From positions 3,156,481-3,220,480 of the forward strand of contig NZ_AP025591.1 of the NCBI RefSeq assembly GCF_023169945.1: a stretch of DNA of 64,000 nucleotides, given 5' to 3'. Below are positions 38,148-59,841 of the stretch, piece after piece (the stretch's first letter is position 1; the number at the start of each line of letters is the position of its first letter). This DNA comes from Anaeromyxobacter oryzae. GTDB lineage: Bacteria; Myxococcota; Myxococcia; Myxococcales; Anaeromyxobacteraceae. A model generated the notes under the pieces. It had not been told where the DNA came from, did no database searches, and saw only the letters and a program-made list of their open reading frames with translations. The position numbers and the translations under genes are program-made.

Positions 38148-38510
38148 GTGGAAAATGAAGTCGCAGCCGGCGTCGCGCAGGCGATGGCCGTCGTGCAGCT
38201 CGTCTCGCTCGCCGTCATGGTCCTCATGACGATCGGGATGTGGAAGATCTTCTCCAAGGCCGGCCAGCCTGGCTGGGCGTCGCTCATCCCCTTCTTCAAC
38301 ATGTACGTGCTGCTCAAGGTGGCTGGGCGGCCGGGCTGGTGGCTCGTCCTGCTGTTCATCCCGCTCGTGAACCTCGTGATCCTGATCCTCGTCGGGATCG
38401 ATCTCGCGAAGGCCTTCGGGAAGGGCGTCGGCTACGGCCTCGGCCTCACGTTCCTCTCGCCGATCTTCTACCCGCTCCTCGGATTCTCGGACGACCCGTA
38501 CCAGGGCTAG
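38148..38510 (+). CDS. small polytopic membrane protein (DUF5684-like)
   Basis: three TM helices, KIFSKAGQPGWASLIPFFNMYVLLKVAGRPGWW motif. Confidence 0.5.
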   Translation: MENEVAAGVAQAMAVVQLVSLAVMVLMTIGMWKIFSKAGQPGWASLIPFFNMYVLLKVAGRPGWWLVLLFIPLVNLVILILVGIDLAKAFGKGVGYGLGLTFLSPIFYPLLGFSDDPYQG

Positions 38511-38532: not shown

Positions 38533-38577
38533 ACGACCCGGTCCGCCTGGCGCGGGCCGGGTCGTCGCGTCTCGCGG
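38533..38577. repeat. GC-rich hairpin element, copy A of a 4-member family
   Basis: GACCCGG-n15-CCGGGTC followed by GTCGTCGCGTCTCGCGG; family motif GGCCCGGTCC...GGGCCGGGCCGTCGTGTCTC. Confidence 0.45.
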
Positions 38578-41107: not shown

Positions 41108-41309
41108 GGCGCGCGGTGCCGAGCGTTCGCTCGGATCTGCACTGCGGGCGGGCTAGGGGCTTTCGAAGAGGGTGGAGGCCGGGGCGTCTCTGCGCGGGCG
41201 GAACGCCGTCTGCGTGATCGGCTCCGAGAGGCCTGAGCTGCGAAGGCGGCGATTCAGGCTGAGTTGGCGACTGACGTCGATCCGACGCAGATGTGTGCGC
41301 CGTCCGGGT

Positions 41310-41395
41310 CGAGTCCGGGTCCGGGTTCGGGGCGAGTCCGCGAGTCCGGGGTTCCGGGGTCCGGGGTCCGCGGGGTGGGGTCCGGCGGCTGCGCT
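41310..41395. repeat. G-rich degenerate tandem repeat (GTCCGGG/GTTCGGGG units)
   Basis: gagtccgggtccgggttcggggcgagtccgcgagtccggggttccggggtccggggtccgcggggtggggtccgg. Confidence 0.6.
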
Positions 41396-41455
41396 GGCTG
41401 GGGTCGCGATCAGGGTCGAGATCGAGGTCGCCCGGAGAGAACCTCCCTCTCCCCC

Positions 41456-41505
41456 CGCTCTCTGGTCGCCGGGAGCGTTCGAGAGCGGGGGGAGAGGGCC
41501 GGGGT
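41456..41505. repeat. perfect 16-bp inverted repeat (hairpin) with 18-nt loop
   Basis: CTCTCCCCCCGCTCTC ... GAGAGCGGGGGGAGAG. Confidence 0.7.
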
Positions 41506-41709
41506 GAGGGGGGCCCGCTTGCGCTTGGCCGGACAGGCCGCGCGCGCCACACCGAGCAGGGCGCGAACGAGGCGCGAGGCGAAGCACTGCCTCTCATGTT
41601 CGGATTCCCGGCCACGCGTACCGCGGCGCGCGCGAGGCCTCGCTCGTGGGCGCGCCACGCCAGCGGGCCCCAATCGGTCGGCAATCCAGACAATCGCGAA
41701 TTGCGCTCG

Positions 41710-43434
41710 ATGTCAGATCGGCGTGCTAATCGACTATGGATGCTCGACGGCGGCTTCAGCTCGATCGGCCTGTGCGCGGTAGCCGTCCCGGCTCCTCCGG
41801 ACGCGCTCGCGGCCGAGGCCTGGCTCCTCGCGCCGCCGATGCCGCACGAGCGCAAGGGCGTTCTCCGGGAGGAGGCGGCGCGGCTCATCGACGGCCTGCT
41901 CGCGCGCGTCGCGCGGGGGCGCGGCGCGCTCGACGTCGCGATCGGCGAAGGGCTCGATGCGCTATCGATTGGCGATCGGTTGCTGCAGCTCGGTTGCTCC
42001 GGCGTCGGCGACTACGCGCGCGAGCATCTGGGTATCCACGAACGCACGGGCCAGCAGATGGCGCGGCTCGCGCGGGAGCTGCGGGTGCGTCCGCTCCTGC
42101 GCGAGGCGGTCCGGAGCGGCGAGGTCACCGCCCGGAAGGCGACGGCGATCTTGCCCGTCGCGCGCGGCGCCGACGAGGCCGCGTGGGTAGCCCGTGCGCG
42201 GTCCGAGACCGTGCGGGCCCTCGACGCGGCGGTGAAGGCCGCGGGGCGACCGGAGCCGGAGCGCGAGGGCGCGGTCGAGCGTGTGGATCTCGAGGTCGGG
42301 CCCGAGGCGCGGGCCCGACTCGAGGAGGCGCTCGCGCTCGCGGGGCAGGTCCTGGGCGCAGGCGCGCCGCGCTGGCAGCGGCTCGAGGCGATCTGCCAGG
42401 AGTTCCTCGCGGCGCACCCGGTCGACGTGCGCGACGAGGAGGACGCCGTGGAGGTCGACGCGTCCGCCGCGGAGTGGCTCGAGGCCGCGCGCGCGGCGCT
42501 CGAGGATGAGACCGCGTGCTGGGCGGCGCTCGACGCCGTCGACCCGGTGATCGCGCCCGACCTCGGCGACGCCGTGGAGCGCGGTGACTCTGACGGGCTC
42601 GACGCGGAGCTCCGGGCGCTCGCGACGATGCGGGAGCGCTGGGACGAGCTCGTCGGGCATCTCGCGATGCTGCTGCGCATGCTCGGCCTGTGGCGAGAGC
42701 TCGGCTTCCTCTCGTCCGGTCACTACTCCGAGGAGCGGCTCGGGATGGCGGCGCGGACCGTCGAGCAGCGGGCCTCGCTCGCCCGACGGCTGCAGACGCT
42801 GCCGGGGCTTCGCGACGCGCTCCGGAGCGGGAGGGTGTCGTACGAGAAGGCGCGGCTGGTTGCCCGGGTCGCGGACGAGGACACGGTCGGCGAGTGGATC
42901 GCGAACGCCGAGCGGACGACCTGCATCGCGCTTCGCCGCGAGATCGAGGAGAACCAGGAGACGCAGATGTGTTCGGCGGGCGAGCTGACCGTCCGCGTTC
43001 CTCCCCGCGTGGCGCGGGTGCTCGATGCGGCGTTCCGCGCGGCGCGCTCCGCAGCCGGGCACTGGCTCACCCCGGAGGAGTGCGTCCTGCTCCTCGCGGA
43101 GCACTTCGTCGCGACCTGGGAGGACGTCCTGCGCACCCGCAGCACGCTGCATCGCATGGTCCTGGCTCGAGACCGCGGCTGGTGCCAGGTGCCGGGCTGC
43201 AGCCGGGCGGCGGCGCACGTCCATCACGTCTGGTACCGATCTCGGGGCGGCGGCGACGACGGCGAGAACCTCGTCTCCGTCTGCGCCGCGCATCACCTCC
43301 ACGCGATCCACGGCGGGTTCATCCGCGTACGGGGACGGGCGCCGGTCGGCCTCGTGTGGGAGGTCGTCCTGACGCGCTCGGCGTCGAGCGGGGGTGCGTG
43401 GGCGGCGTCCGGTGCGATCGAGTGCCGGGTCTGA
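41710..43434 (+). CDS. HNH endonuclease domain protein (DUF222/13E12-repeat-like architecture)
   Basis: C-terminal CQVPGC...HVHHVWYRSRGGGDDGENLVSVCAAHHLHAIHGG is an HNH/His-Me finger; long N-terminal helical region; ATG at 41710 chosen, upstream in-frame ORF through the repeats judged non-coding. Confidence 0.65.
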   Translation: MSDRRANRLWMLDGGFSSIGLCAVAVPAPPDALAAEAWLLAPPMPHERKGVLREEAARLIDGLLARVARGRGALDVAIGEGLDALSIGDRLLQLGCSGVGDYAREHLGIHERTGQQMARLARELRVRPLLREAVRSGEVTARKATAILPVARGADEAAWVARARSETVRALDAAVKAAGRPEPEREGAVERVDLEVGPEARARLEEALALAGQVLGAGAPRWQRLEAICQEFLAAHPVDVRDEEDAVEVDASAAEWLEAARAALEDETACWAALDAVDPVIAPDLGDAVERGDSDGLDAELRALATMRERWDELVGHLAMLLRMLGLWRELGFLSSGHYSEERLGMAARTVEQRASLARRLQTLPGLRDALRSGRVSYEKARLVARVADEDTVGEWIANAERTTCIALRREIEENQETQMCSAGELTVRVPPRVARVLDAAFRAARSAAGHWLTPEECVLLLAEHFVATWEDVLRTRSTLHRMVLARDRGWCQVPGCSRAAAHVHHVWYRSRGGGDDGENLVSVCAAHHLHAIHGGFIRVRGRAPVGLVWEVVLTRSASSGGAWAASGAIECRV

Positions 43435-48891: not shown

Positions 48892-50616
48892 CTAGAACGG
48901 GTGACAACCCCTGCAGCTCTCGTAGCCGTTGTGCGGCGTCCCCCACACCACCTGCCTCTCCAGGAGGTGGCAGGCGACGTTCGAGCAGGTCTTGGTGGCG
49001 GGGTCGTACCCGGCGCCCTCGAGCCGCAGCGAGAGGGTCGCGCCGTCCATCACCGCGTCCGGGATGTCCGGGGTCGGGAAGACGATGCCGGTCGCCGCGT
49101 GCGTCACCCAGTACGGCCGCGTCGGCCGGTCGGGCGGCTGGGGCAGGAACGACAGGTCGGGCAGGTCCGGGCGGCGATCGAACGCCACCTCGCGCGCGCC
49201 GTCGACGTGGCGCAGCGGGAGGACGCGCCCCTTGCCCGTCGGCGAGCGGTCGCCGTCGCCGTGGCACCCCGCGGCGGCGCAGGAGATGGCCGAGTGGCCG
49301 CCCTCGAGCTGGTAGTCGCCGGTGGTGTCGAGCCAGTAGAAGCCCGACGGCCCGGTGGCGGTCGGGTCCACCGTGTCGGCGTGGCAGGTCTGGCAGGTGA
49401 TGGGCGCCGCGTCCTCGCCCGGCCCCCAGGTGCCGCCGCCGTGCTTGCTCGAGTGCCACGGTCCGGGGAGCCCGGTGAAGTGGCCCCACTCGTAGAGGAC
49501 GCCGTTGTCCGGCGCGAGCCCGATGTGCCCGTTCGCATCGGGCGCCCCCGCGCCGCCCGTGGCGTAGCGCGGCGGGTTGCCGTGACAGCCGCCGCAGCCG
49601 AGCGTGCCGGGCGGCGCGGTCCAGGCCGGCGTCGTCGCGTAGACCGGCGCCGCCTGTCCGCTCGAGTGGCAGTAGACGCCGGAGCACGTCGCGCCCGCGG
49701 CGTCCCACGCAGCGCCGGACGCGCCTCGCGCCTTCAACGATCCGTCCGGCGCGCCCGCGGGCGAGAGGTCCACCTCGATCGTGCCGTCCATGTGCTTCGC
49801 CGCGTCGAGCGGGTGGCAGTGGCCGCAGCCGAAGTAGTACGCGTCACCGGAGGTCGCGACGTCGGAGAGGCGCGCGAGGCTGCCGTAGGCGACGTCCTCG
49901 AGCGACGGCGGCGTCGCGTGGCGCGCGTGGGCGCCGGTCGCGGGCGGCGCGGCGTGGCAGGCGTTGCAGGCGCCGCCCGACGGGGCGTCGATCTTGCCGT
50001 CGACGTGGTGGCCCCCGGCGACGTCGATCGTCCCGTCCGGTCGGACCGTCGCCGAGTGGCAGCCGTAGCAGTTCCGGGCGACGTCGCCCTGCGGGTGGAA
50101 CTGCGTGGCGGGCGGATAGCCGTGGCAGGAGTCACAGGTGATCTGGCTCGCGTCGACCCGCGTCCAGATCGGCGCGGTGTGCTGGCCGCCGCTGTTCATC
50201 GTCGCGCCGTGGCAGTAGACGCCGCTGCAGCGCGGACCCTCGGGGTAGTCGGGCTCCCAGGCCGGCGTCGCGCCGGCGTGGCGGGCGAGGCCGTCGGGCG
50301 GGAACGTCACGATCGCGCGCCCGTCCGGCGAGGTCATGTGGTCCTTCACGTGATCGGGCACCACGTGGCACTCGCGGCACGACATCGCCGAGCGGATCGG
50401 GCCGTCGTCGACGTGGGCGCGGTGGGCGCCCACGCCGCGATCGGTGGTGGCGGTCTCGCCGTGCGCGGACCAGGGCGGGGCGGCGCTCCCGTTGCCGCCG
50501 TGGCACTGGTCGCAGGAGTCACCGCTGCTCGCGAGCGGCCGGGGGCGGTCGCACGCGAGCAGGAGCTGGAAGGCGGCGACCGCGGCGAGCGCGCGGGATC
50601 TGTGGAAGGGAGGCAT
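48892..50616 (-). CDS. multiheme c-type cytochrome-like lipoprotein of the CxxxxCH...CxxCH (Geobacter-type) family
   Basis: lipobox LLLAC; 9 CxxCH plus 4 CxxxxCH motifs (CDQCH, CRECH, CSGVYCH, CDSCH, CYGCH, CNACH, CGHCH, CSGVYCH, CGGCH, CQTCH, CAAAGCH, CSNVACH, CRGCH). Confidence 0.75.
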   Translation of the reverse strand: MPPFHRSRALAAVAAFQLLLACDRPRPLASSGDSCDQCHGGNGSAAPPWSAHGETATTDRGVGAHRAHVDDGPIRSAMSCRECHVVPDHVKDHMTSPDGRAIVTFPPDGLARHAGATPAWEPDYPEGPRCSGVYCHGATMNSGGQHTAPIWTRVDASQITCDSCHGYPPATQFHPQGDVARNCYGCHSATVRPDGTIDVAGGHHVDGKIDAPSGGACNACHAAPPATGAHARHATPPSLEDVAYGSLARLSDVATSGDAYYFGCGHCHPLDAAKHMDGTIEVDLSPAGAPDGSLKARGASGAAWDAAGATCSGVYCHSSGQAAPVYATTPAWTAPPGTLGCGGCHGNPPRYATGGAGAPDANGHIGLAPDNGVLYEWGHFTGLPGPWHSSKHGGGTWGPGEDAAPITCQTCHADTVDPTATGPSGFYWLDTTGDYQLEGGHSAISCAAAGCHGDGDRSPTGKGRVLPLRHVDGAREVAFDRRPDLPDLSFLPQPPDRPTRPYWVTHAATGIVFPTPDIPDAVMDGATLSLRLEGAGYDPATKTCSNVACHLLERQVVWGTPHNGYESCRGCHPF

Positions 50617-51651: not shown

Positions 51652-52719
51652 TCACGGCATGAGCGGCAGGTTCACGAACCAGACCGCGGCGCCCGCGGCG
51701 AGGGCGAGCGCCGCGAGGACCGCGAGCCGGGCCCGGCGCCGGCGGGCGACCGGGAACTCCACCGCCGTGCGCGTGCCGCGTGCGTCGGCGATCCGGGTCG
51801 CCTGCAGGGTCGCGAGGTCCATCTTCGAGAGCGCGATCTCCTCGGTGGCGAAGCCGCGGTGCGCGAGGAGCGCGACGAGGCGGGCGCGCGGGTGCGTCTT
51901 GCGGAGCCGGCGGGCCGCGGCGGCGGCGAGGGCGCGCGAGAGATCGCCGGCCGACTTCCACCGCCGGTCGGGCCGCCGGGCGAGGCAGCGCTCCACGATC
52001 CGCGCGATCCGGCGCGGGCAGTCCGGCGCGAGCGCGCGCAGGCGCCGGAACCGGCCCTTGCGGATCGCGCCGAAGAGCTGGTCGGCGTTCGCGCCGCGGA
52101 ACGGCTTCTCGCCCGCGACGAGCTCGTAGAGCGTGACCCCGAGCGCCCAGACGTCGGCGGCCGGTCCGGCCTCCTCGCCGCCGAGCACCTCCGGCGCCAT
52201 GTACGACGGGCTCCCGACGAGCATGCCGGCGCGGGTGAGCGCGGGATCGTCCTCGCCCTTGGCGATCCCGAAGTCCATGAGCTTCACCTCGCCGTCGCGC
52301 GAGACCATGACGTTCGCCGGCTTCACGTCGCGGTGGAGGAGCCCGTTGAAGTGGACGTAGTCGAGCGCCTCGCCGACGCGCGCGCCGATGATGGCGGCGC
52401 ACTCCGCGGGGACCGCGCCGCCCGCCTGGAGCAGCCGCGCGAGATCCGCGCCGTCCACGAAGTCGGTGACGAGGTAGAGCTGCTCGTCCTTCTCCACGAG
52501 GTCGTGCACGGCGACGATCGCCTCGTGCCGGAGCCGCGCGTAGGCCCGCCCCTCACGGCGGAAGCGCTCCACGACCTCCTTCGACCGCGCGATCTTCTGG
52601 TCGAGCGCCTTCACCGCCACGGGCCGGTCGAGACCTTCCTGGAAGGCCTCGTACACCACGCCCATGCCGCCGCGCCCGATCTCCCGGACGACCCGGCTCG
52701 TGCCGACCTTGCGGATCAT
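51652..52719 (-). CDS. serine/threonine protein kinase with C-terminal TM anchor
   Basis: GRGGMGVVYEA...AVK (G-loop/Lys), HRDVKPANV, DFG, APE motifs; C-terminal LAVLAALALAAGAAVWFV. Confidence 0.85.
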   Translation of the reverse strand: MIRKVGTSRVVREIGRGGMGVVYEAFQEGLDRPVAVKALDQKIARSKEVVERFRREGRAYARLRHEAIVAVHDLVEKDEQLYLVTDFVDGADLARLLQAGGAVPAECAAIIGARVGEALDYVHFNGLLHRDVKPANVMVSRDGEVKLMDFGIAKGEDDPALTRAGMLVGSPSYMAPEVLGGEEAGPAADVWALGVTLYELVAGEKPFRGANADQLFGAIRKGRFRRLRALAPDCPRRIARIVERCLARRPDRRWKSAGDLSRALAAAAARRLRKTHPRARLVALLAHRGFATEEIALSKMDLATLQATRIADARGTRTAVEFPVARRRRARLAVLAALALAAGAAVWFVNLPLMP

Positions 52720-52914
52720 GCGGGGCGGAGGATCGCCCGCCCGGCCGGTAGACCTCAAGGGGACGCCGCTCGTGCCGAGATCTGCACCGGTTGCGCGGAT
52801 GGAAGGGACTGACATCCGCATCGGTTGCAAAGCAGGTGATCGGATCTGCTACACTTCGCCGCTCCGACACTGGAACCGGCGGCGTCGCCAGGAAGGTCCG
52901 GTAGTTGGAGGGCC

Positions 52915-53002: not shown

Positions 53003-56596
<3,594 letters not shown>

Positions 56597-56612
56597 GCGC
56601 ACCTGAAGGCTC

Positions 56613-56660
56613 GACGGCGGCCCGGTCCTGCTTCCTGCGGGGCCGGGCCGTCGTGTCTCG
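56613..56660. repeat. GC-rich hairpin element, family copy C (3' of PFOR)
   Basis: GACGGCGGCCCGGTCC-tgcttcctgc-GGGGCCGGGCCGTCGTGTCTCGG; about 90% identical to copy D. Confidence 0.55.
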
Positions 56661-56800
56661 GGGTGCTGGCAACGCCGTTCGCCCTGAGCCCGCCGAAGGG
56701 CCCGGCGAGGCCCCGCTCCCCTGCCCGAGGGCGGCGGTCCACCTGGGCCGGCGCGCGGCGCACGGCCCGCGTTTAGCAACCTCCGTCGAGGCCTTTCACG

Positions 56801-58306
56801 ATGGCGCTCGCCTCCATCGAACGGCTCGACGAGCTCCCGGGCGATCTCTGCGCCGCGCTGCGACGGCGGTTCGACGACGTCGGCTTCGATCGCCGCGTGC
56901 TATCCGTCGCGGCCGACGGGGCGGCGGCGCTGTTCGAGGGCCTCCGGTTCCCGCTCGCCCGGGCGATCCTGGAGACGCGGGAGGATCCGGGCTCGCGCCT
57001 CGCGCTGCTGTTCACGTTCGCGGGGGAGGTGCCGGAGGAGAGCGCGCGCGACGCGCTCGGGCCCGTCGCCGGCGACGCGCTCGTCGCGGCGGGGGTCCTC
57101 GTCCGGACGCCCGGCGGCGCCCTGCGCTCCGCGTACCGGGTGACGCCGTACGAGGGGCTCTGGATCTTCACGGACCACCTCGTCTCCGGCAGCGACACGG
57201 TCATGGTGCCCGGCGCGACGACCGGCCGGCTCGTCGACCTCATGCCTCCCGCCCTGACGGGCGGGATGCTCGACCTCGGGTGCGGGCACGGCCTGATCGC
57301 GCTGGTCGCCGCGCGGCGCGGGGCGGCGCCCGTGATCGGGACCGACATCAACGCGCGCGCGATCGGCCTCGCCCGGTTCAACGCACGGTTCAACGGGGTC
57401 GCCGCGGAGTTCCACGTCGGTGATCGGGCCGCGCCCGTCCAGGGTCGGCGGTTCGAGCTGGTGATGGCGCAGCCGCCGTACGTCGCTCGCCCGGCGGACT
57501 CCGTCGCGGCGACGTACATGCACGGCGGGGCGCTCGGAGACGAGCTGGCGCTGCGGTTCGTGGCCGCGATCCCGCCGGTGCTCGCCGAGGGCGGCCGCGC
57601 CCTGGTGTGCTTCGACTCGGCCGTCCGTCCGGGCACGGCGCCCACGACGCTCGTGCGGGACGCGATGGGCGACCCGCTGGTGGACCTCGTCCTGCTGCTC
57701 GAGCCGGGGTTGCCGCCGGAGCAGCAGGCGGTCGCGTACGCCTCGGTGGAGGCTCCCGACCTCGGCCCGGCCTACGCCGCCGCCGTCCGCCGGTATCACC
57801 GCCACTTCCTCGCGGTCGGCGCCGCCGCGTTCCACCACGTCGTCGCGATCCTGCGACGCCGCCCGCCGGGCGCGGGGGGCGCGGCGCCGTTCGTGCACGG
57901 CCTGTCGACGGCGTTCCTCGCCGGTGGCACCTCCGCGACGATCGACGCGCTCCTCGAGTCCCTCGACCTCGCCGCCTCCGGCGACGACGCGCTGCTCGCG
58001 GCCGCGGTGCGATGCTCCCCCTGCACGCGCTGGGTCGACGAGCGGCCACGGCCCGACGCGCGGCTCGCGCCGGCTCACGCGGTCCGGTTCGGCGCCGGGA
58101 CCGTGGGCACCAACCGCTCCTTCGAGGAGCAGGAGTACGCGCTGCTGTCCCTGCTCGACGGCTGCGACTCGGTGGCCTTCGCGATCGAGCGGTTCGCGGG
58201 CACGGCCGCGGCGCCCTCCGACGGGCTGCGCGCGAGCGTGCTCGGGTTCGTCCGGCAGGGGCTCACGAGCGGTCTGCTCGAGCCGCGGAGCACCGCAGGG
58301 CGCTGA
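56801..58306 (+). CDS. HemK-like SAM-dependent methyltransferase fused to a C-terminal PqqD-like RiPP recognition element (candidate RiPP-modifying enzyme)
   Basis: motif I LDLGCGHGLIAL, GTDIN, motif IV QPPY (NPPY-class amino-MTase); residues ~445-480 SFEEQEYALLSLLDGCDSVAFAIERF resemble the PqqD [29 protein letters not shown] core. Confidence 0.6.
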   Translation: MALASIERLDELPGDLCAALRRRFDDVGFDRRVLSVAADGAAALFEGLRFPLARAILETREDPGSRLALLFTFAGEVPEESARDALGPVAGDALVAAGVLVRTPGGALRSAYRVTPYEGLWIFTDHLVSGSDTVMVPGATTGRLVDLMPPALTGGMLDLGCGHGLIALVAARRGAAPVIGTDINARAIGLARFNARFNGVAAEFHVGDRAAPVQGRRFELVMAQPPYVARPADSVAATYMHGGALGDELALRFVAAIPPVLAEGGRALVCFDSAVRPGTAPTTLVRDAMGDPLVDLVLLLEPGLPPEQQAVAYASVEAPDLGPAYAAAVRRYHRHFLAVGAAAFHHVVAILRRRPPGAGGAAPFVHGLSTAFLAGGTSATIDALLESLDLAASGDDALLAAAVRCSPCTRWVDERPRPDARLAPAHAVRFGAGTVGTNRSFEEQEYALLSLLDGCDSVAFAIERFAGTAAAPSDGLRASVLGFVRQGLTSGLLEPRSTAGR

Positions 58307-58417
58307 CCCTCGCGGGGCGGGCGACGCCCCGCGACGTCAGGTTCGGCCGGTCTCGCCGTCCACCCACCCGAGCAGCCGCCACGTCGCGGCACACACACTC
58401 GAAAGGGAATTCGTTCA

Positions 58418-58608
58418 TGGACGACAGGAAGCCGAAGGTGCTGAACGACGACGAGCTCCGGGTCGCGGCCGGCGGCGCGCGCATCTTCCGGGAGCCGGGC
58501 CTCGACGTCTCCGGGTACAAGTTCGCCCCGATCGCCGGACACAAGTTCGCGCCGATCGGCGGGGTCGACCTCCCCCCGGTCCTCTACAAGTTCTCGCCGC
58601 TGGTCTGA
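58418..58608 (+). CDS. candidate RiPP precursor peptide (63 aa) with double-glycine/NHLP-like leader
   Basis: AAGGGA RBS 8 nt upstream of ATG; all-G/C third positions; leader MDDRKPKVLNDDELRVAAGG; core ARIFREPGLDVSGYKFAPIAGHKFAPIGGVDLPPVLYKFSPLV with three [Y/H]KF[A/S]P[I/L] repeats. Confidence 0.55.
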
Positions 58609-58637
58609 TCGGCGGCCGGCGCCCGCGGCGCGACCGC

Positions 58638-58690
58638 GACGGGCGGCCCGGTCCCGCGCTCCGCGGGGCCGGGCCGTCGTGTCTCCGGAT
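58638..58690. repeat. GC-rich hairpin element, family copy D (between the convergent peptide and EEP genes)
   Basis: GACGGGCGGCCCGGTCC-cgcgctccgc-GGGGCCGGGCCGTCGTGTCTCCGG. Confidence 0.55.
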
Positions 58691-59841
58691 CACCGCGCCG
58701 CCTGCAGCTCCGCACCTGGCGACGCGATCCGCAGCTCGGCGACGAGGCCGGCGTGGTCGCTCGGCCAGAGGCCCGACACCTGCGCGGTGCCGACGACCTC
58801 GGCGTCGGCCGGCGTGAACGGCCCCCGGAACAGCGCGTAGTCGATCCGCGTCTCGAGCGTGTCCGGCAGCGTGAGGTCCTCGAGGTAGCAGCAGGTGAGG
58901 CCGGCGGCGGCCGGGTAGAGCGCCGCCCAGGTGTCGGTGAAGCCGCCCTCGTCCACGAGCACGGCCGCGCCCTGCGTTCCCGGCTCGGAGTTCAGGTCGC
59001 CGACCACCACGACGGGCCGGGTCTCTCCCGCGAGCGCCTGGACGAGCTCGCCGGCCTGCACGGTCCGCACCGTCTCGTCGAACGCCTCCAGGTGCGTCGA
59101 GACGAACCGGATCCACTGCCCGCGCTCCTTCGCGAGGACGGTCGCCCAGCCGCGGGGCACCGGGAGCTGCCGGCCGAGCACGCCGACCGAGAGCAGCGTC
59201 GGGTACACGTGACCCTCCGGGCTCGCGGTCGGGACGTCCTCGCGGGCGAGGACGACGCCGTGGTCCGTGAGCCGCACGTCGTCGAAGACGCCCGGGGACG
59301 CGGTCGCCACCGGCGCCTCGAAGTCGAACAGCGTCACCGACGCGGCGACGCGGTAGTGGAGGCTCCGGGCGCGGAGCGCGTCGAGGAGCTCCTGCACGTA
59401 GTCGTAGACCACCTCCGTCGCCGGCGTGGTGCCACCGGCGATGGCGTCACCGGGCGACTGGATCCGCCAGAGGTACGCCTCCTGGAGCCCGACCAGCTCC
59501 GGCCGCGACGCGGCGATCTCGTCGGCGACCGCCTCGGCGCGGACGTGGAACGAGTTCCGGTTCACCATCGCCCAGACCACCGTCGTCGCCCCGAGGAACG
59601 CCTCCGGCGTCGTGGCCGCCATCACCGGGCCGAGATCCGCGCCGAGGTAGAGGTTCCGCGACATGACGGTGAGCTCGCGGCCGACGTGGCGGCCGGCGTC
59701 GGCGATCGCGGCGCCGGCGCTCGAGGGCGGCGCGGCGGCCCCCGCGCGCTCGGTGGCGGCCGGGGAGGCGCCGCCGCTGCACGCGAGGGAGAGGACGAGG
59801 GAGAGGCCGAGGGTGGGGGCGACGATCCGGGGGACGCGCAT
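58690..59841 (-). CDS. endonuclease/exonuclease/phosphatase (EEP) family lipoprotein
   Basis: lipobox LVLSLACSGG; MSRNLYLGADL...ELVGLQEA...VVVGDLNSEP...WPSDHAGL are EEP catalytic motifs. Confidence 0.7.
   Translation of the reverse strand: MRVPRIVAPTLGLSLVLSLACSGGASPAATERAGAAAPPSSAGAAIADAGRHVGRELTVMSRNLYLGADLGPVMAATTPEAFLGATTVVWAMVNRNSFHVRAEAVADEIAASRPELVGLQEAYLWRIQSPGDAIAGGTTPATEVVYDYVQELLDALRARSLHYRVAASVTLFDFEAPVATASPGVFDDVRLTDHGVVLAREDVPTASPEGHVYPTLLSVGVLGRQLPVPRGWATVLAKERGQWIRFVSTHLEAFDETVRTVQAGELVQALAGETRPVVVVGDLNSEPGTQGAAVLVDEGGFTDTWAALYPAAAGLTCCYLEDLTLPDTLETRIDYALFRGPFTPADAEVVGTAQVSGLWPSDHAGLVAELRIASPGAELQAAR

What the first reader, a model, noticed from the sequence alone, without database searches (positions are those of the whole stretch)
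58418..58608. 63-aa ORF with NHLP/double-glycine-type leader and triple YKF-AP-I repeat core
The leader LNDDELRVAAGG matches the ELxxVAGG cleavage motif of Nif11/NHLP and class II bacteriocin leaders. The core contains three near-identical hexapeptide repeats (GYKFAPIAG, HKFAPIGG, LYKFSPLV), is Pro-rich and has no Cys. No C39-peptidase ABC exporter is present in the window, although an RND pump lies ~1.4 kb downstream.
Basis: seen in the sequence. Interest (0 to 1): 0.75.

Follow-up and report, generated by a model that had tools for sequence, protein, structure and literature searches.

The report
Repeat-core peptide with dedicated N-methyltransferase
The 63-codon ORF is a real, conserved gene for a secreted-type precursor peptide with KFAP(I/L) repeats, always paired with an upstream N-methyltransferase carrying a peptide-binding domain; this looks like a small, undescribed modified-peptide (RiPP-like) system.

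Summary
The ORF exists at 58417-58608 (+), one base upstream of the stated start, in Anaeromyxobacter oryzae. It encodes a 20-aa double-glycine leader, an invariant R-x-F-x-E-P box and three K-F-(A/S)-P-(I/L) units.

About 16 distinct relatives exist in metagenomes, with 2-5 repeat units. They represent 6-7 independent lineages. Wherever DNA is available, the peptide gene lies about 100 nt downstream of a 67-82% identical copy of the 501-aa gene at 56801-58306, while the other neighbours differ.

That upstream protein is a class I N-methyltransferase. Its closest solved relatives are GenN and the RiPP Asn N-methyltransferase AerE. Its C-terminal domain has the fold of a RiPP recognition element (RRE), with lasso-peptide B1 proteins and PqqD as best structural matches.

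Best reading: a two-gene RiPP-like module. The enzyme binds the precursor and N-methylates its core, most plausibly the repeat lysines. A peptidase-exporter encoded elsewhere then cleaves and exports the peptide.

The leader is a class II bacteriocin type, not NHLP or Nif11. The downstream RND pump is probably unrelated.

Caveats:
- No modification has been shown.
- More distant homologues of the methyltransferase lack any adjacent peptide.
- The target residue is inferred.

I found no description in Pfam, NCBIfam or the searchable literature.

The parts
56616..56662 (+). GC-rich hairpin followed by GTCGTGTCTC, just after the stop of the upstream pyruvate:ferredoxin oxidoreductase gene. Terminator-like; marks the left boundary of the module.
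   Evidence: 47-nt direct repeat, 87% identical to 58642-58688. The core motif recurs after three + strand genes in the window, against 0.06 expected by chance.
56801..58306 (+). 501-aa SAM-dependent N-methyltransferase with an N-terminal helical subdomain, a Rossmann domain and a C-terminal RRE-fold domain.
57269..57292 (+). SAM-binding motif I, LDLGCGHG (residues 157-164).
   Evidence: D158, G160 and G162 are invariant in 32 homologues. Coordinates.
57470..57481 (+). Motif IV, QPPY (residues 224-227), the counterpart of the (N/D)PP(Y/F) motif of amino-group methyltransferases.
   Evidence: Q224 and P225 are invariant. The motif aligns with NPPF (N231-F234) of AerE, which are catalytic residues in AerE according to PMC9060474.
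57914..58303 (+). C-terminal winged-helix domain with the RiPP recognition element (PqqD-like) fold, residues 372-501.
58310..58334 (+). 10-bp GC-rich stem-loop right after the methyltransferase stop codon, within the 110-nt intergenic spacer.
   Evidence: RNAfold of the spacer. A comparable hairpin is predicted in L083 and L087; function not tested.
58403..58408 (+). Shine-Dalgarno-like AAGGGA, 8 nt before the ATG.
   Evidence: Read from the sequence. The homologous spacers carry AAGGAG, GGGAG or GAGGAG at the same place.
58417..58608 (+). 63-aa precursor-peptide gene (stop codon included).
   Evidence: GC by codon position 0.70/0.41/0.98. This is the only frame open in all six lineages. About 16 distinct homologues.
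58417..58476 (+). Double-glycine-type leader, MDDRKPKVLNDDELRVAAGG (residues 1-20).
   Evidence: Family consensus M-D/E-x-K-K-x-P-K-V/I-L-T-x-x-E-L-x-x-V-x-G-G/A. Weak TIGR01847 hits.
58480..58497 (+). Invariant R-x-F-x-E-P box (RIFREP, residues 22-27), directly after the GG site.
   Evidence: R22, E26 and P27 are invariant in alignment A2 and are kept in all members listed. Their codons vary synonymously: CGC/CGT/CGG and CCG/CCC.
58519..58533 (+). Repeat unit 1, KFAPI (residues 35-39).
   Evidence: Lys is invariant in all 49 units of 16 peptides.
58543..58557 (+). Repeat unit 2, KFAPI (residues 43-47).
58588..58602 (+). Repeat unit 3, KFSPL (residues 58-62), followed by one C-terminal residue.
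   Evidence: A C-terminal KF(A/S/E)PL plus 0-1 residue is found in 13 of 16 members, and one further member ends KIEPL.
58642..58688 (+). Terminator-like GC-rich hairpin after the peptide stop codon; right boundary of the module.
   Evidence: A strong hairpin is predicted downstream of the peptide gene in every lineage.

Best explanation
The ORF and the gene upstream form a two-gene, RiPP-like module that is probably transcribed on its own.

The 63-aa product is a precursor peptide. It has a 20-aa double-glycine leader, an invariant R-x-F-x-E-P box, and a core made of K-F-A-P-(L/I) pentapeptide units.

The partner is a cytoplasmic 501-aa methyltransferase of the GenN/AerE/PrmC clade of amino-group N-methyltransferases. 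It carries a C-terminal RRE-fold domain.

Proposed mechanism:
1. The RRE-fold domain holds the unprocessed precursor, through the leader, the RxFxEP box or the proline-containing repeats.
2. The catalytic domain transfers methyl groups from SAM to nitrogen atoms in the core. It does this iteratively, most plausibly on the epsilon-amino group of the one invariant lysine in each repeat.
3. A C39-peptidase ABC exporter encoded elsewhere in the genome cleaves after Gly-Gly and exports a cationic, proline-rich, protease-resistant peptide. Its role would be antimicrobial or signalling.

Shown here: the gene is real and conserved, the pairing with the methyltransferase is strict, the enzyme has the N-methyltransferase fold and motif, and its C-terminal domain has the RRE fold.

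Inferred: that the enzyme acts on this peptide, which atom it methylates, the export route, and the biological activity.
For: Gene reality:
- The sense frame is the only frame open in all six lineages.
- GC by codon position is 0.70/0.41/0.98, and a ribosome-binding site is conserved.
- Invariant residues are encoded by varying synonymous codons.
- Differences between relatives are whole pentapeptide units.

Pairing:
- In the window, L001, L002 (with L092-L096), L083, L084, L087-L091 and the P0008 contig, a small ORF follows the methyltransferase by about 100 nt. Its sequence could be read in all but the P0008 contig, for which no DNA was available.
- The flanking genes differ: oxidoreductase, helicase-nuclease, MFS transporter, GrpB, YceI, aminotransferase, sigma factor, hydrolase.

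Enzyme:
- QPPY aligns with the catalytic NPPF of AerE.
- AerE is an iterative peptide side-chain N-methyltransferase (PMC9060474).

Target:
- Lys is invariant in 49 of 49 units, and almost every core Lys lies in a unit.
- Asn and Gln are not conserved, and Cys, Ser and Thr are not conserved.
- The overall architecture of catalytic domain plus C-terminal winged helix also matches the protein-lysine methyltransferases Rv2067c and PKMT1/2.
Against: - No chemistry has been observed.
- The methyltransferase family is much wider: 192 genomic matches, mostly Myxococcota and Eisenbacteria. Outside the 67-100% identity clade it keeps the C-terminal domain but has no adjacent peptide and no conserved neighbour. 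The ancestral substrate is therefore something else.
- Only 6-7 independent lineages, all close relatives, carry the pair. Contigs within two of the groups are DNA-identical, so inherited synteny is not fully excluded.
- Pairwise dN/dS is only moderately below 1, at 0.37-1.09.
- The AerE catalytic residues Tyr137 and Asp141 align with Val and Thr here, so the chemistry is not AerE's.
- Winged-helix domains on methyltransferases were treated as false-positive RREs by the RRE-Finder authors.
- No peptidase-exporter is linked in the window or on any contig.
Confidence: 0.5

Rival explanations
1. The peptide is an unmodified double-glycine-leader peptide, a class II bacteriocin-like toxin or a pheromone. 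The methyltransferase next to it acts on another substrate, and the adjacency is inherited synteny within one narrow clade.
For: - Most homologues of the methyltransferase have no adjacent peptide.
- The peptide-bearing lineages are all close relatives.
- Other, unrelated GG-leader peptides are scattered in these genomes, so such peptides need no dedicated enzyme.
Against: - The pair stays together with a constant spacer of about 100 nt while both flanks change in every lineage.
- The enzyme carries an RRE-fold domain, and one of its two closest solved relatives is a RiPP peptide methyltransferase.
- The module is bracketed by its own terminator-like hairpins.
Confidence: 0.25
2. The methyltransferase does modify the peptide, but not on the repeat lysines. 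The target is the invariant Arg of the R-x-F-x-E-P box, whose planar guanidino nitrogen resembles the substrates of (N/D)PPY enzymes, or else a backbone amide or a His. The KFAPL repeats then serve as RRE docking sites or as the bioactive part.
For: - The RxFxEP box is the most conserved part of the core.
- (N/D)PPY-type enzymes usually methylate conjugated amino groups (established knowledge; AerE and PrmC).
- The best RRE matches are lasso-peptide B1 proteins. From my own knowledge, not tested here, these bind a Y-x-x-P-x-L leader motif that resembles Y-K-F-A-P-L.
Against: - The closest solved relative, GenN, methylates an aliphatic amine.
- A single Arg does not explain the expansion of the repeat array from 2 to 5 units.
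- The overall architecture resembles protein-lysine methyltransferases.
Confidence: 0.15
3. It is a proteusin-like (NHLP or Nif11 leader) precursor, modified as polytheonamide and aeronamide are.
For: The methyltransferase is homologous to AerE. The leader ends in GG.
Against: - No NHLP or Nif11 model hit at E<=10, and the leader is 20 aa.
- There is no conserved Asn in the core.
- The AerE Tyr137/Asp141 dyad is not conserved.
- No radical-SAM epimerase was found among the neighbours on any contig.
Confidence: 0.02
4. It is not a gene: either a chance ORF in GC-rich DNA, or the antisense shadow of a decayed pentapeptide-repeat gene, since KFAP(L/I) read on the opposite strand gives (L/I)GANL.
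For: The antisense, wobble-sharing frame reads IGANL twice. All 120 metagenome matches to the repeat DNA pattern are antisense readings of ordinary pentapeptide-repeat proteins.
Against: - The antisense frame contains stops in 5 of 6 lineages, while the sense frame is open in all six.
- The start codon, ribosome-binding site and leader motif are conserved.
- GC1 is higher than GC2 in the sense frame only.
- Gene callers predicted it independently in many assemblies.
Confidence: 0.03

Closest known systems
AerE / PoyE, the proteusin Asn N-gamma-methyltransferases (aeronamide, polytheonamide)
   Different: - AerE has no RRE and works independently of the leader.
- Its Tyr137/Asp141 dyad is replaced here, and its NPPF is QPPY.
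- The substrate here has no conserved Asn.
- The leader is short rather than NHLP or Nif11.
- No epimerase or other proteusin enzymes are present.
GenN, the gentamicin 3''-N-methyltransferase
   Different: GenN acts on an aminoglycoside. It has no RRE-fold domain and is not paired with a peptide gene.
RRE-dependent RiPP enzymes (lasso-peptide B1 proteins TfuB1 and TbiB1, PqqD, LanB, MccB, LynD)
   Different: The RRE is fused to a GenN/AerE-type methyltransferase. I found no description of this combination in the RiPP methyltransferase review or the RRE papers I read. Binding has not been tested.
Class II bacteriocin / double-glycine leader peptides with C39-peptidase ABC exporters
   Same: The leader length and consensus match (L-12, E-8, L-7, V-4, GG or GA).
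   Different: No exporter, immunity gene or accessory gene is linked. The core is a pentapeptide-repeat array without Cys, and it is paired with a tailoring enzyme.
Bacterial protein-lysine methyltransferases Rv2067c (M. tuberculosis) and PKMT1/2 (Rickettsia)
   Different: Their catalytic domains are much more distant (Foldseek E about 1e-8, against 1e-18 for GenN and AerE). Their substrates are folded proteins (histone H3, OmpB) rather than an adjacent small peptide.
Epichloecyclins (fungal RiPPs with dimethyl-lysine installed by GigC)
   Same: In the 2024 review this is the only RiPP family listed with a dedicated lysine side-chain N-methylation. Its precursor is also repeat-containing.
   Different: It is fungal, with unrelated enzymes and precursor, and the products are cyclic.

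Membership tests
Double-glycine (class II bacteriocin-type) leader peptides | An N-terminal leader of 15-30 aa ending in GG, GA or GS, with hydrophobic residues at -4, -7 and -12 and an acidic residue at -8. | tested here: met
   The family consensus is L-12, E-8, L-7, V-4, G-2, G/A-1. The window copy has A at -4 and V at -5.
Double-glycine (class II bacteriocin-type) leader peptides | A match to the curated bacteriocin-type signal model (TIGR01847). | tested here: inconclusive
   2 of 6 members hit at E 0.019 or weaker. The window peptide has no hit.
Double-glycine (class II bacteriocin-type) leader peptides | A cognate C39-peptidase ABC exporter. | tested here: not met
   None among the long ORFs of the window, and none on any related contig. 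The rest of the genome could not be searched with these tools.
NHLP (TIGR03793) / Nif11 (TIGR03798) leader precursors | A long (about 70-100 aa) leader homologous to nitrile hydratase alpha or Nif11, detected by the NCBIfam models. | tested here: not met
   No hit at E<=1 for the window peptide or E<=10 for six members. The leader is 20 aa.
RRE-dependent RiPP systems | A short precursor gene adjacent to a tailoring enzyme, with the adjacency conserved. | tested here: met
   6-7 lineages have the pair, with differing flanks.
RRE-dependent RiPP systems | A PqqD-like winged-helix RRE fold in the enzyme or a partner protein. | tested here: met
   [not shown]
RRE-dependent RiPP systems | The RRE binds the precursor, and the core is post-translationally modified. 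| not testable with these tools
There are no mass-spectrometry data.
Proteusin-type Asn N-methylation (AerE / PoyE) | Homology of the methyltransferase to AerE. | tested here: met
   [not shown]
Proteusin-type Asn N-methylation (AerE / PoyE) | The catalytic residues Tyr137, Asp141, Asn231 and Phe234 of AerE. | tested here: not met
   In the profile alignment these align with Val136, Thr140, Gln224 and Tyr227. Their roles in AerE are taken from PMC9060474. The alignment is sequence-based, not a structural superposition.
Proteusin-type Asn N-methylation (AerE / PoyE) | A core with regularly spaced Asn (D-Asn) acceptors and an accompanying radical-SAM epimerase. | tested here: not met
   The window core has no Asn or Gln, and none is conserved in the family. 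No radical-SAM gene is listed among the neighbours.
PrmC/HemK release-factor glutamine methyltransferases | A score above the curated cut-off of the equivalog models, and an NPPY motif. | tested here: not met
   TIGR03534 scores 56 bits against a cut-off of 199, and TIGR00536 scores 35 against 115. The motif is QPPY.
Pentapeptide-repeat proteins (A[D/N]LXX) | Tandem A(D/N)LXX units in the coding frame that match Pfam pentapeptide models. | tested here: not met
   The peptide has no Pfam hit. The GANL reading exists only on the antisense strand and is interrupted by a stop.

The most novel reading that the evidence does not exclude
This would be a bacterial RiPP class defined by iterative N-epsilon-methylation of lysines in a tandem K-F-A-P-L array. 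I found no such class described. The modification would be installed by an RRE-guided methyltransferase of the GenN/AerE lineage, making a minimal two-gene pathway. A more radical variant: the array is a multi-core cassette, and each methylated pentapeptide is released as a separate small signal.
Probability: 0.3. Interest if true: 0.75.

Novelty: new variant of a known kind. Interest (0 to 1): 0.6.

Why it matters
If the methyltransferase modifies the peptide, this adds a new precursor family and a new enzyme architecture (RRE fused to a GenN/AerE-type N-methyltransferase) to RiPP biosynthesis.

It would also be a compact two-gene system. It could be used to install side-chain N-methyl groups on repeat peptides, which is useful for protease resistance and for tuning cationic peptides.

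It further suggests that some of the roughly 1,000 methyltransferases that RRE-Finder discarded as false positives are genuine peptide-modifying enzymes. The much larger orphan family in Myxococcota and Eisenbacteria may have peptide or protein substrates encoded elsewhere in the genome.

Tried and rejected
- **Word-index and exhaustive HMMER searches with the single peptide** found only itself and one relative. A profile of six members was needed to reach about 16.
- **The search for related loci with the peptide alignment** failed because no stretch was conserved enough.
- **The one metagenome DNA scan**, for the back-translated KFAP(L/I)KFAP pattern, returned 120 loci. All are antisense readings of ordinary pentapeptide-repeat genes and none has the leader, so no new members were gained.
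- **Peptide searches in 80 genomic loci of distant methyltransferase homologues.** Searches for a KFAPL-type or GG-leader peptide, and all-against-all clustering of flanking ORFs, found no conserved precursor. Apart from one 4-locus family of about 171 aa directly downstream of the methyltransferase (not precursor-like), the small clusters are alternative-frame artefacts.
- **Comparison of contigs carrying identical peptides**, done to look for synonymous change, was uninformative because the DNA is identical.
- **Rfam** gave only sub-threshold noise in 56400-59000. The sigma-70 promoter and U-tract terminator scans found nothing.
- **The 47-nt direct repeat bracketing the module** was considered as an insertion scar. 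I rejected this because the same motif follows a third, unrelated gene.
- **Literature searches** for KFAPL, DUF7059, DUF7782 and Anaeromyxobacter RiPPs found nothing relevant.

Full report
**1. The observation**

The sequence shows an ATG at 58417, so the finding's start is one base late, and a TGA ending at 58608. Translation gives MDDRKPKVLNDDELRVAAGGARIFREPGLDVSGYKFAPIAGHKFAPIGGVDLPPVLYKFSPLV, 63 aa. An AAGGGA ribosome-binding site lies 8 nt upstream.

The three K-F-(A/S)-P-(I/L) units are at residues 35, 43 and 58. Shuffling the peptide 200,000 times never gave three such units. At DNA level they are three 24-nt copies. The core has 14% Pro and no Cys. The protein is already annotated as a hypothetical protein of Anaeromyxobacter oryzae.

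**2. Is it a gene?**

GC content by codon position is 0.70/0.41/0.98. In a GC-rich genome one antisense frame shares the wobble position, so GC3 alone does not settle the strand. In that antisense frame the repeats read (L/I)GANL, the canonical pentapeptide-repeat unit. I therefore tested the strand directly.

- Across six independent lineages only the sense frame is always open. The wobble-sharing antisense frame has stops in five of six.
- The start codon, ribosome-binding site and a downstream hairpin are conserved.
- Invariant residues use different synonymous codons: Arg CGC/CGT/CGG, Gly GGC/GGA/GGG/GGT, Leu CTG/CTC/CTT, Pro27 CCG/CCC.
- Length differences between relatives are whole pentapeptide units.

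Pairwise dN/dS is only moderately below 1, at 0.37-1.09. This fits a fast-evolving peptide whose constraint is concentrated in motifs, and I report it as a weakness.

**3. The family**

A profile of six members retrieved 15 proteins. With the copies read from contigs this makes about 16 distinct sequences. All share three features:
- a leader M-D/E-x-K-K-x-P-K-V/I-L-T-x-x-E-L-x-x-V-x-G-G/A;
- an invariant R-x-F/Y-x-E-P box directly after the GG site;
- 2 to 5 K-F-A-P-(L/I) units, often strictly tandem, for example ...YKFAPIKFAPIKFAPLKFGPLKFEPL.

The peptide usually ends one residue after the last unit. Lys is invariant in 49 of 49 units, and nearly every core Lys lies in a unit. Asn and Gln are not conserved, and Cys is almost absent.

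Neither Pfam nor NCBIfam has a model for the family. The only weak hits are to GG-leader families such as TIGR01847, and none is to NHLP or Nif11.

**4. The partner**

Immediately upstream, at 56801-58306, is a 501-aa methyltransferase. Every contig that carries a family member and extends far enough has a 67-82% identical copy of this enzyme, ending about 100 nt before the peptide gene. The outer neighbours differ between lineages:
- oxidoreductase and endonuclease-family genes in the window;
- helicase-nuclease and aminotransferase in the L002 lineage;
- GrpB and a sigma factor in L001;
- an MFS transporter in L083;
- YceI and a hydrolase in L089 and L090.

Contigs within two of these groups are DNA-identical. 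I therefore count 6-7 independent lineages, not dozens.

In the window the pair is bracketed by two copies of a terminator-like hairpin. One follows the oxidoreductase gene and one follows the peptide gene. A third, diverged copy follows an unrelated gene, so this is a generic terminator rather than an insertion scar. This suggests the pair is its own transcription unit.

**5. What the enzyme is**

The AF2 model is confident, with pLDDT 91.4.

- Foldseek agrees.
- A sequence profile also agrees: GenN E 5e-28 and AerE E 2e-14.

AerE is the aeronamide D-Asn N-gamma-methyltransferase, an iterative RiPP enzyme (PMC9060474).

The family's invariant QPPY aligns with AerE's catalytic NPPF. AerE's Tyr137/Asp141 dyad, however, aligns with Val and Thr. 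The enzyme is therefore an amino-group N-methyltransferase of this lineage without AerE's amide-activating apparatus.

The last 130 residues were modelled separately, with pLDDT 91.3. They have the beta-3/alpha-3 winged-helix fold. Their best matches are RiPP recognition elements: TfuB1 9.3, TbiB1 8.9, TigE 8.2, PqqD 7.8, then MibB, ThcOx, MccB, PbtF, NisB, TbtB, TglI and LynD. Pfam PqqD hits 14 of 19 family fragments.

The same domain also matches the C-terminal domains of the protein-lysine methyltransferases Rv2067c and PKMT2. Foldseek aligns the whole protein to Rv2067c and PKMT1 over 427-445 columns, at a much weaker level than GenN and AerE.

**6. Mechanism proposed**

The enzyme has no signal peptide (read), so it would act in the cytoplasm, before the leader is removed. 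This argues against methylation of the new N-terminus.

The nitrogen-bearing side chains conserved in the core are the repeat lysines and the single Arg of the RxFxEP box. Three things favour iterative Lys N-epsilon-methylation:
- the iterative precedent of AerE;
- the amine chemistry of GenN;
- the resemblance in architecture to lysine methyltransferases, together with the expansion of the Lys-containing unit.

Arg methylation is the main alternative. Export and cleavage would need a C39-peptidase ABC exporter. None is in the window or on any related contig.

All steps from "the enzyme acts on this peptide" onward are inference.

**7. What speaks against it**

The methyltransferase family is far wider than the peptide family. 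There were 192 genomic matches, 80 of them fetched, mostly Myxococcota and Eisenbacteria. These homologues keep the C-terminal domain. Outside the 67-100% identity clade, however, there is no KFAPL or GG-leader peptide within 6 kb and no conserved neighbour at all.

The peptide is therefore a recent acquisition by one branch of an enzyme family whose ancestral substrate is unknown, and inherited synteny cannot be fully excluded. The RRE-Finder authors also warned that methyltransferases retrieved by their exploratory mode were presumed false positives.

**8. Comparison and novelty**

- The leader meets the double-glycine consensus but fails the NHLP and Nif11 tests.
- The system shares its enzyme lineage with proteusins but fails three of their defining features.
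- It meets the two testable criteria of RRE-dependent RiPP systems.

I found no description of this peptide motif, of DUF7059 or DUF7782, or of an RRE-fused GenN/AerE-type enzyme in the searchable literature. The 2024 review of RiPP methyltransferases lists dedicated Lys side-chain methylation only for the fungal epichloecyclins.

I rate it a new variant of a known kind: a candidate new RiPP family. Interest is 0.6. Confidence is 0.5 that the enzyme modifies the peptide, and about 0.3 for lysine specifically.

The RND adaptor and pump downstream are real but are not conserved with the module, so they are probably unrelated.

Noticed in passing
window 58519-58602 (antisense); L097-L216: The repeat DNA (AAG TTC GCN CCG CTN), read on the opposite strand in the wobble-sharing frame, gives (L/I)GANL, the canonical pentapeptide-repeat unit. 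All 120 metagenome matches to the back-translated pattern are antisense readings of ordinary pentapeptide-repeat proteins. Whether the KFAPL core arose from the antisense strand of such a gene is open.
   Followed up: partly
window 56616-56662, 58642-58688, 38553-38573: A terminator-like hairpin ending in GGGGCCGGGCCGTCGTGTCTC recurs just after the stop codons of three + strand genes: the oxidoreductase gene, the peptide gene, and the gene at 38148-38510. The stems are conserved and the loops differ. It has no U-tract and was missed by the standard terminator scan.
   Followed up: partly
L002 2844-3023 (-), also L092-L096; L001 5550-5762 (-) and 8996-9238 (+): Unrelated double-glycine-leader peptides lie next to the module in two lineages. 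A 59-aa and a 70-aa peptide are divergently transcribed just upstream of the methyltransferase; the 70-aa one has a Pfam T6SS_HCP hit on its core. An 80-aa peptide lies downstream. They could be further substrates of the methyltransferase or simply co-located secreted peptides.
   Followed up: no
L003-L082, L085, L086: A large family of about 500-aa methyltransferases with the same three-domain layout, including the RRE-fold C-terminus, occurs in Myxococcota, Eisenbacteria and others with no conserved neighbour. Their substrate is unknown. In four Nannocystaceae or related loci (L027, L038, L055, L073) a protein of about 171 aa follows directly; three of the copies are lipoprotein-like.
   Followed up: partly
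[not shown]
   Followed up: partly
window 58310-58334: A 10-bp all-GC stem-loop lies directly after the methyltransferase stop codon, inside the spacer before the peptide gene. Similar hairpins are predicted in L083 and L087. It may set the expression ratio of enzyme to peptide.
   Followed up: no
window 48892-50616 (-), 51652-52758 (-), 53003-56596 (+): The neighbourhood includes a multihaem cytochrome with Geobacter-type CxxCH motifs, a Ser/Thr protein kinase, and a 1197-aa pyruvate:ferredoxin/flavodoxin oxidoreductase-like gene. The oxidoreductase assignment rests on reading its translation only; no family search was run on it. None of these is conserved with the module.
   Followed up: no
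window 41293-43434 (+): A 713-aa ORF with coding-like GC3 (0.88) has no Pfam hit at E<=1e-5.
   Followed up: no
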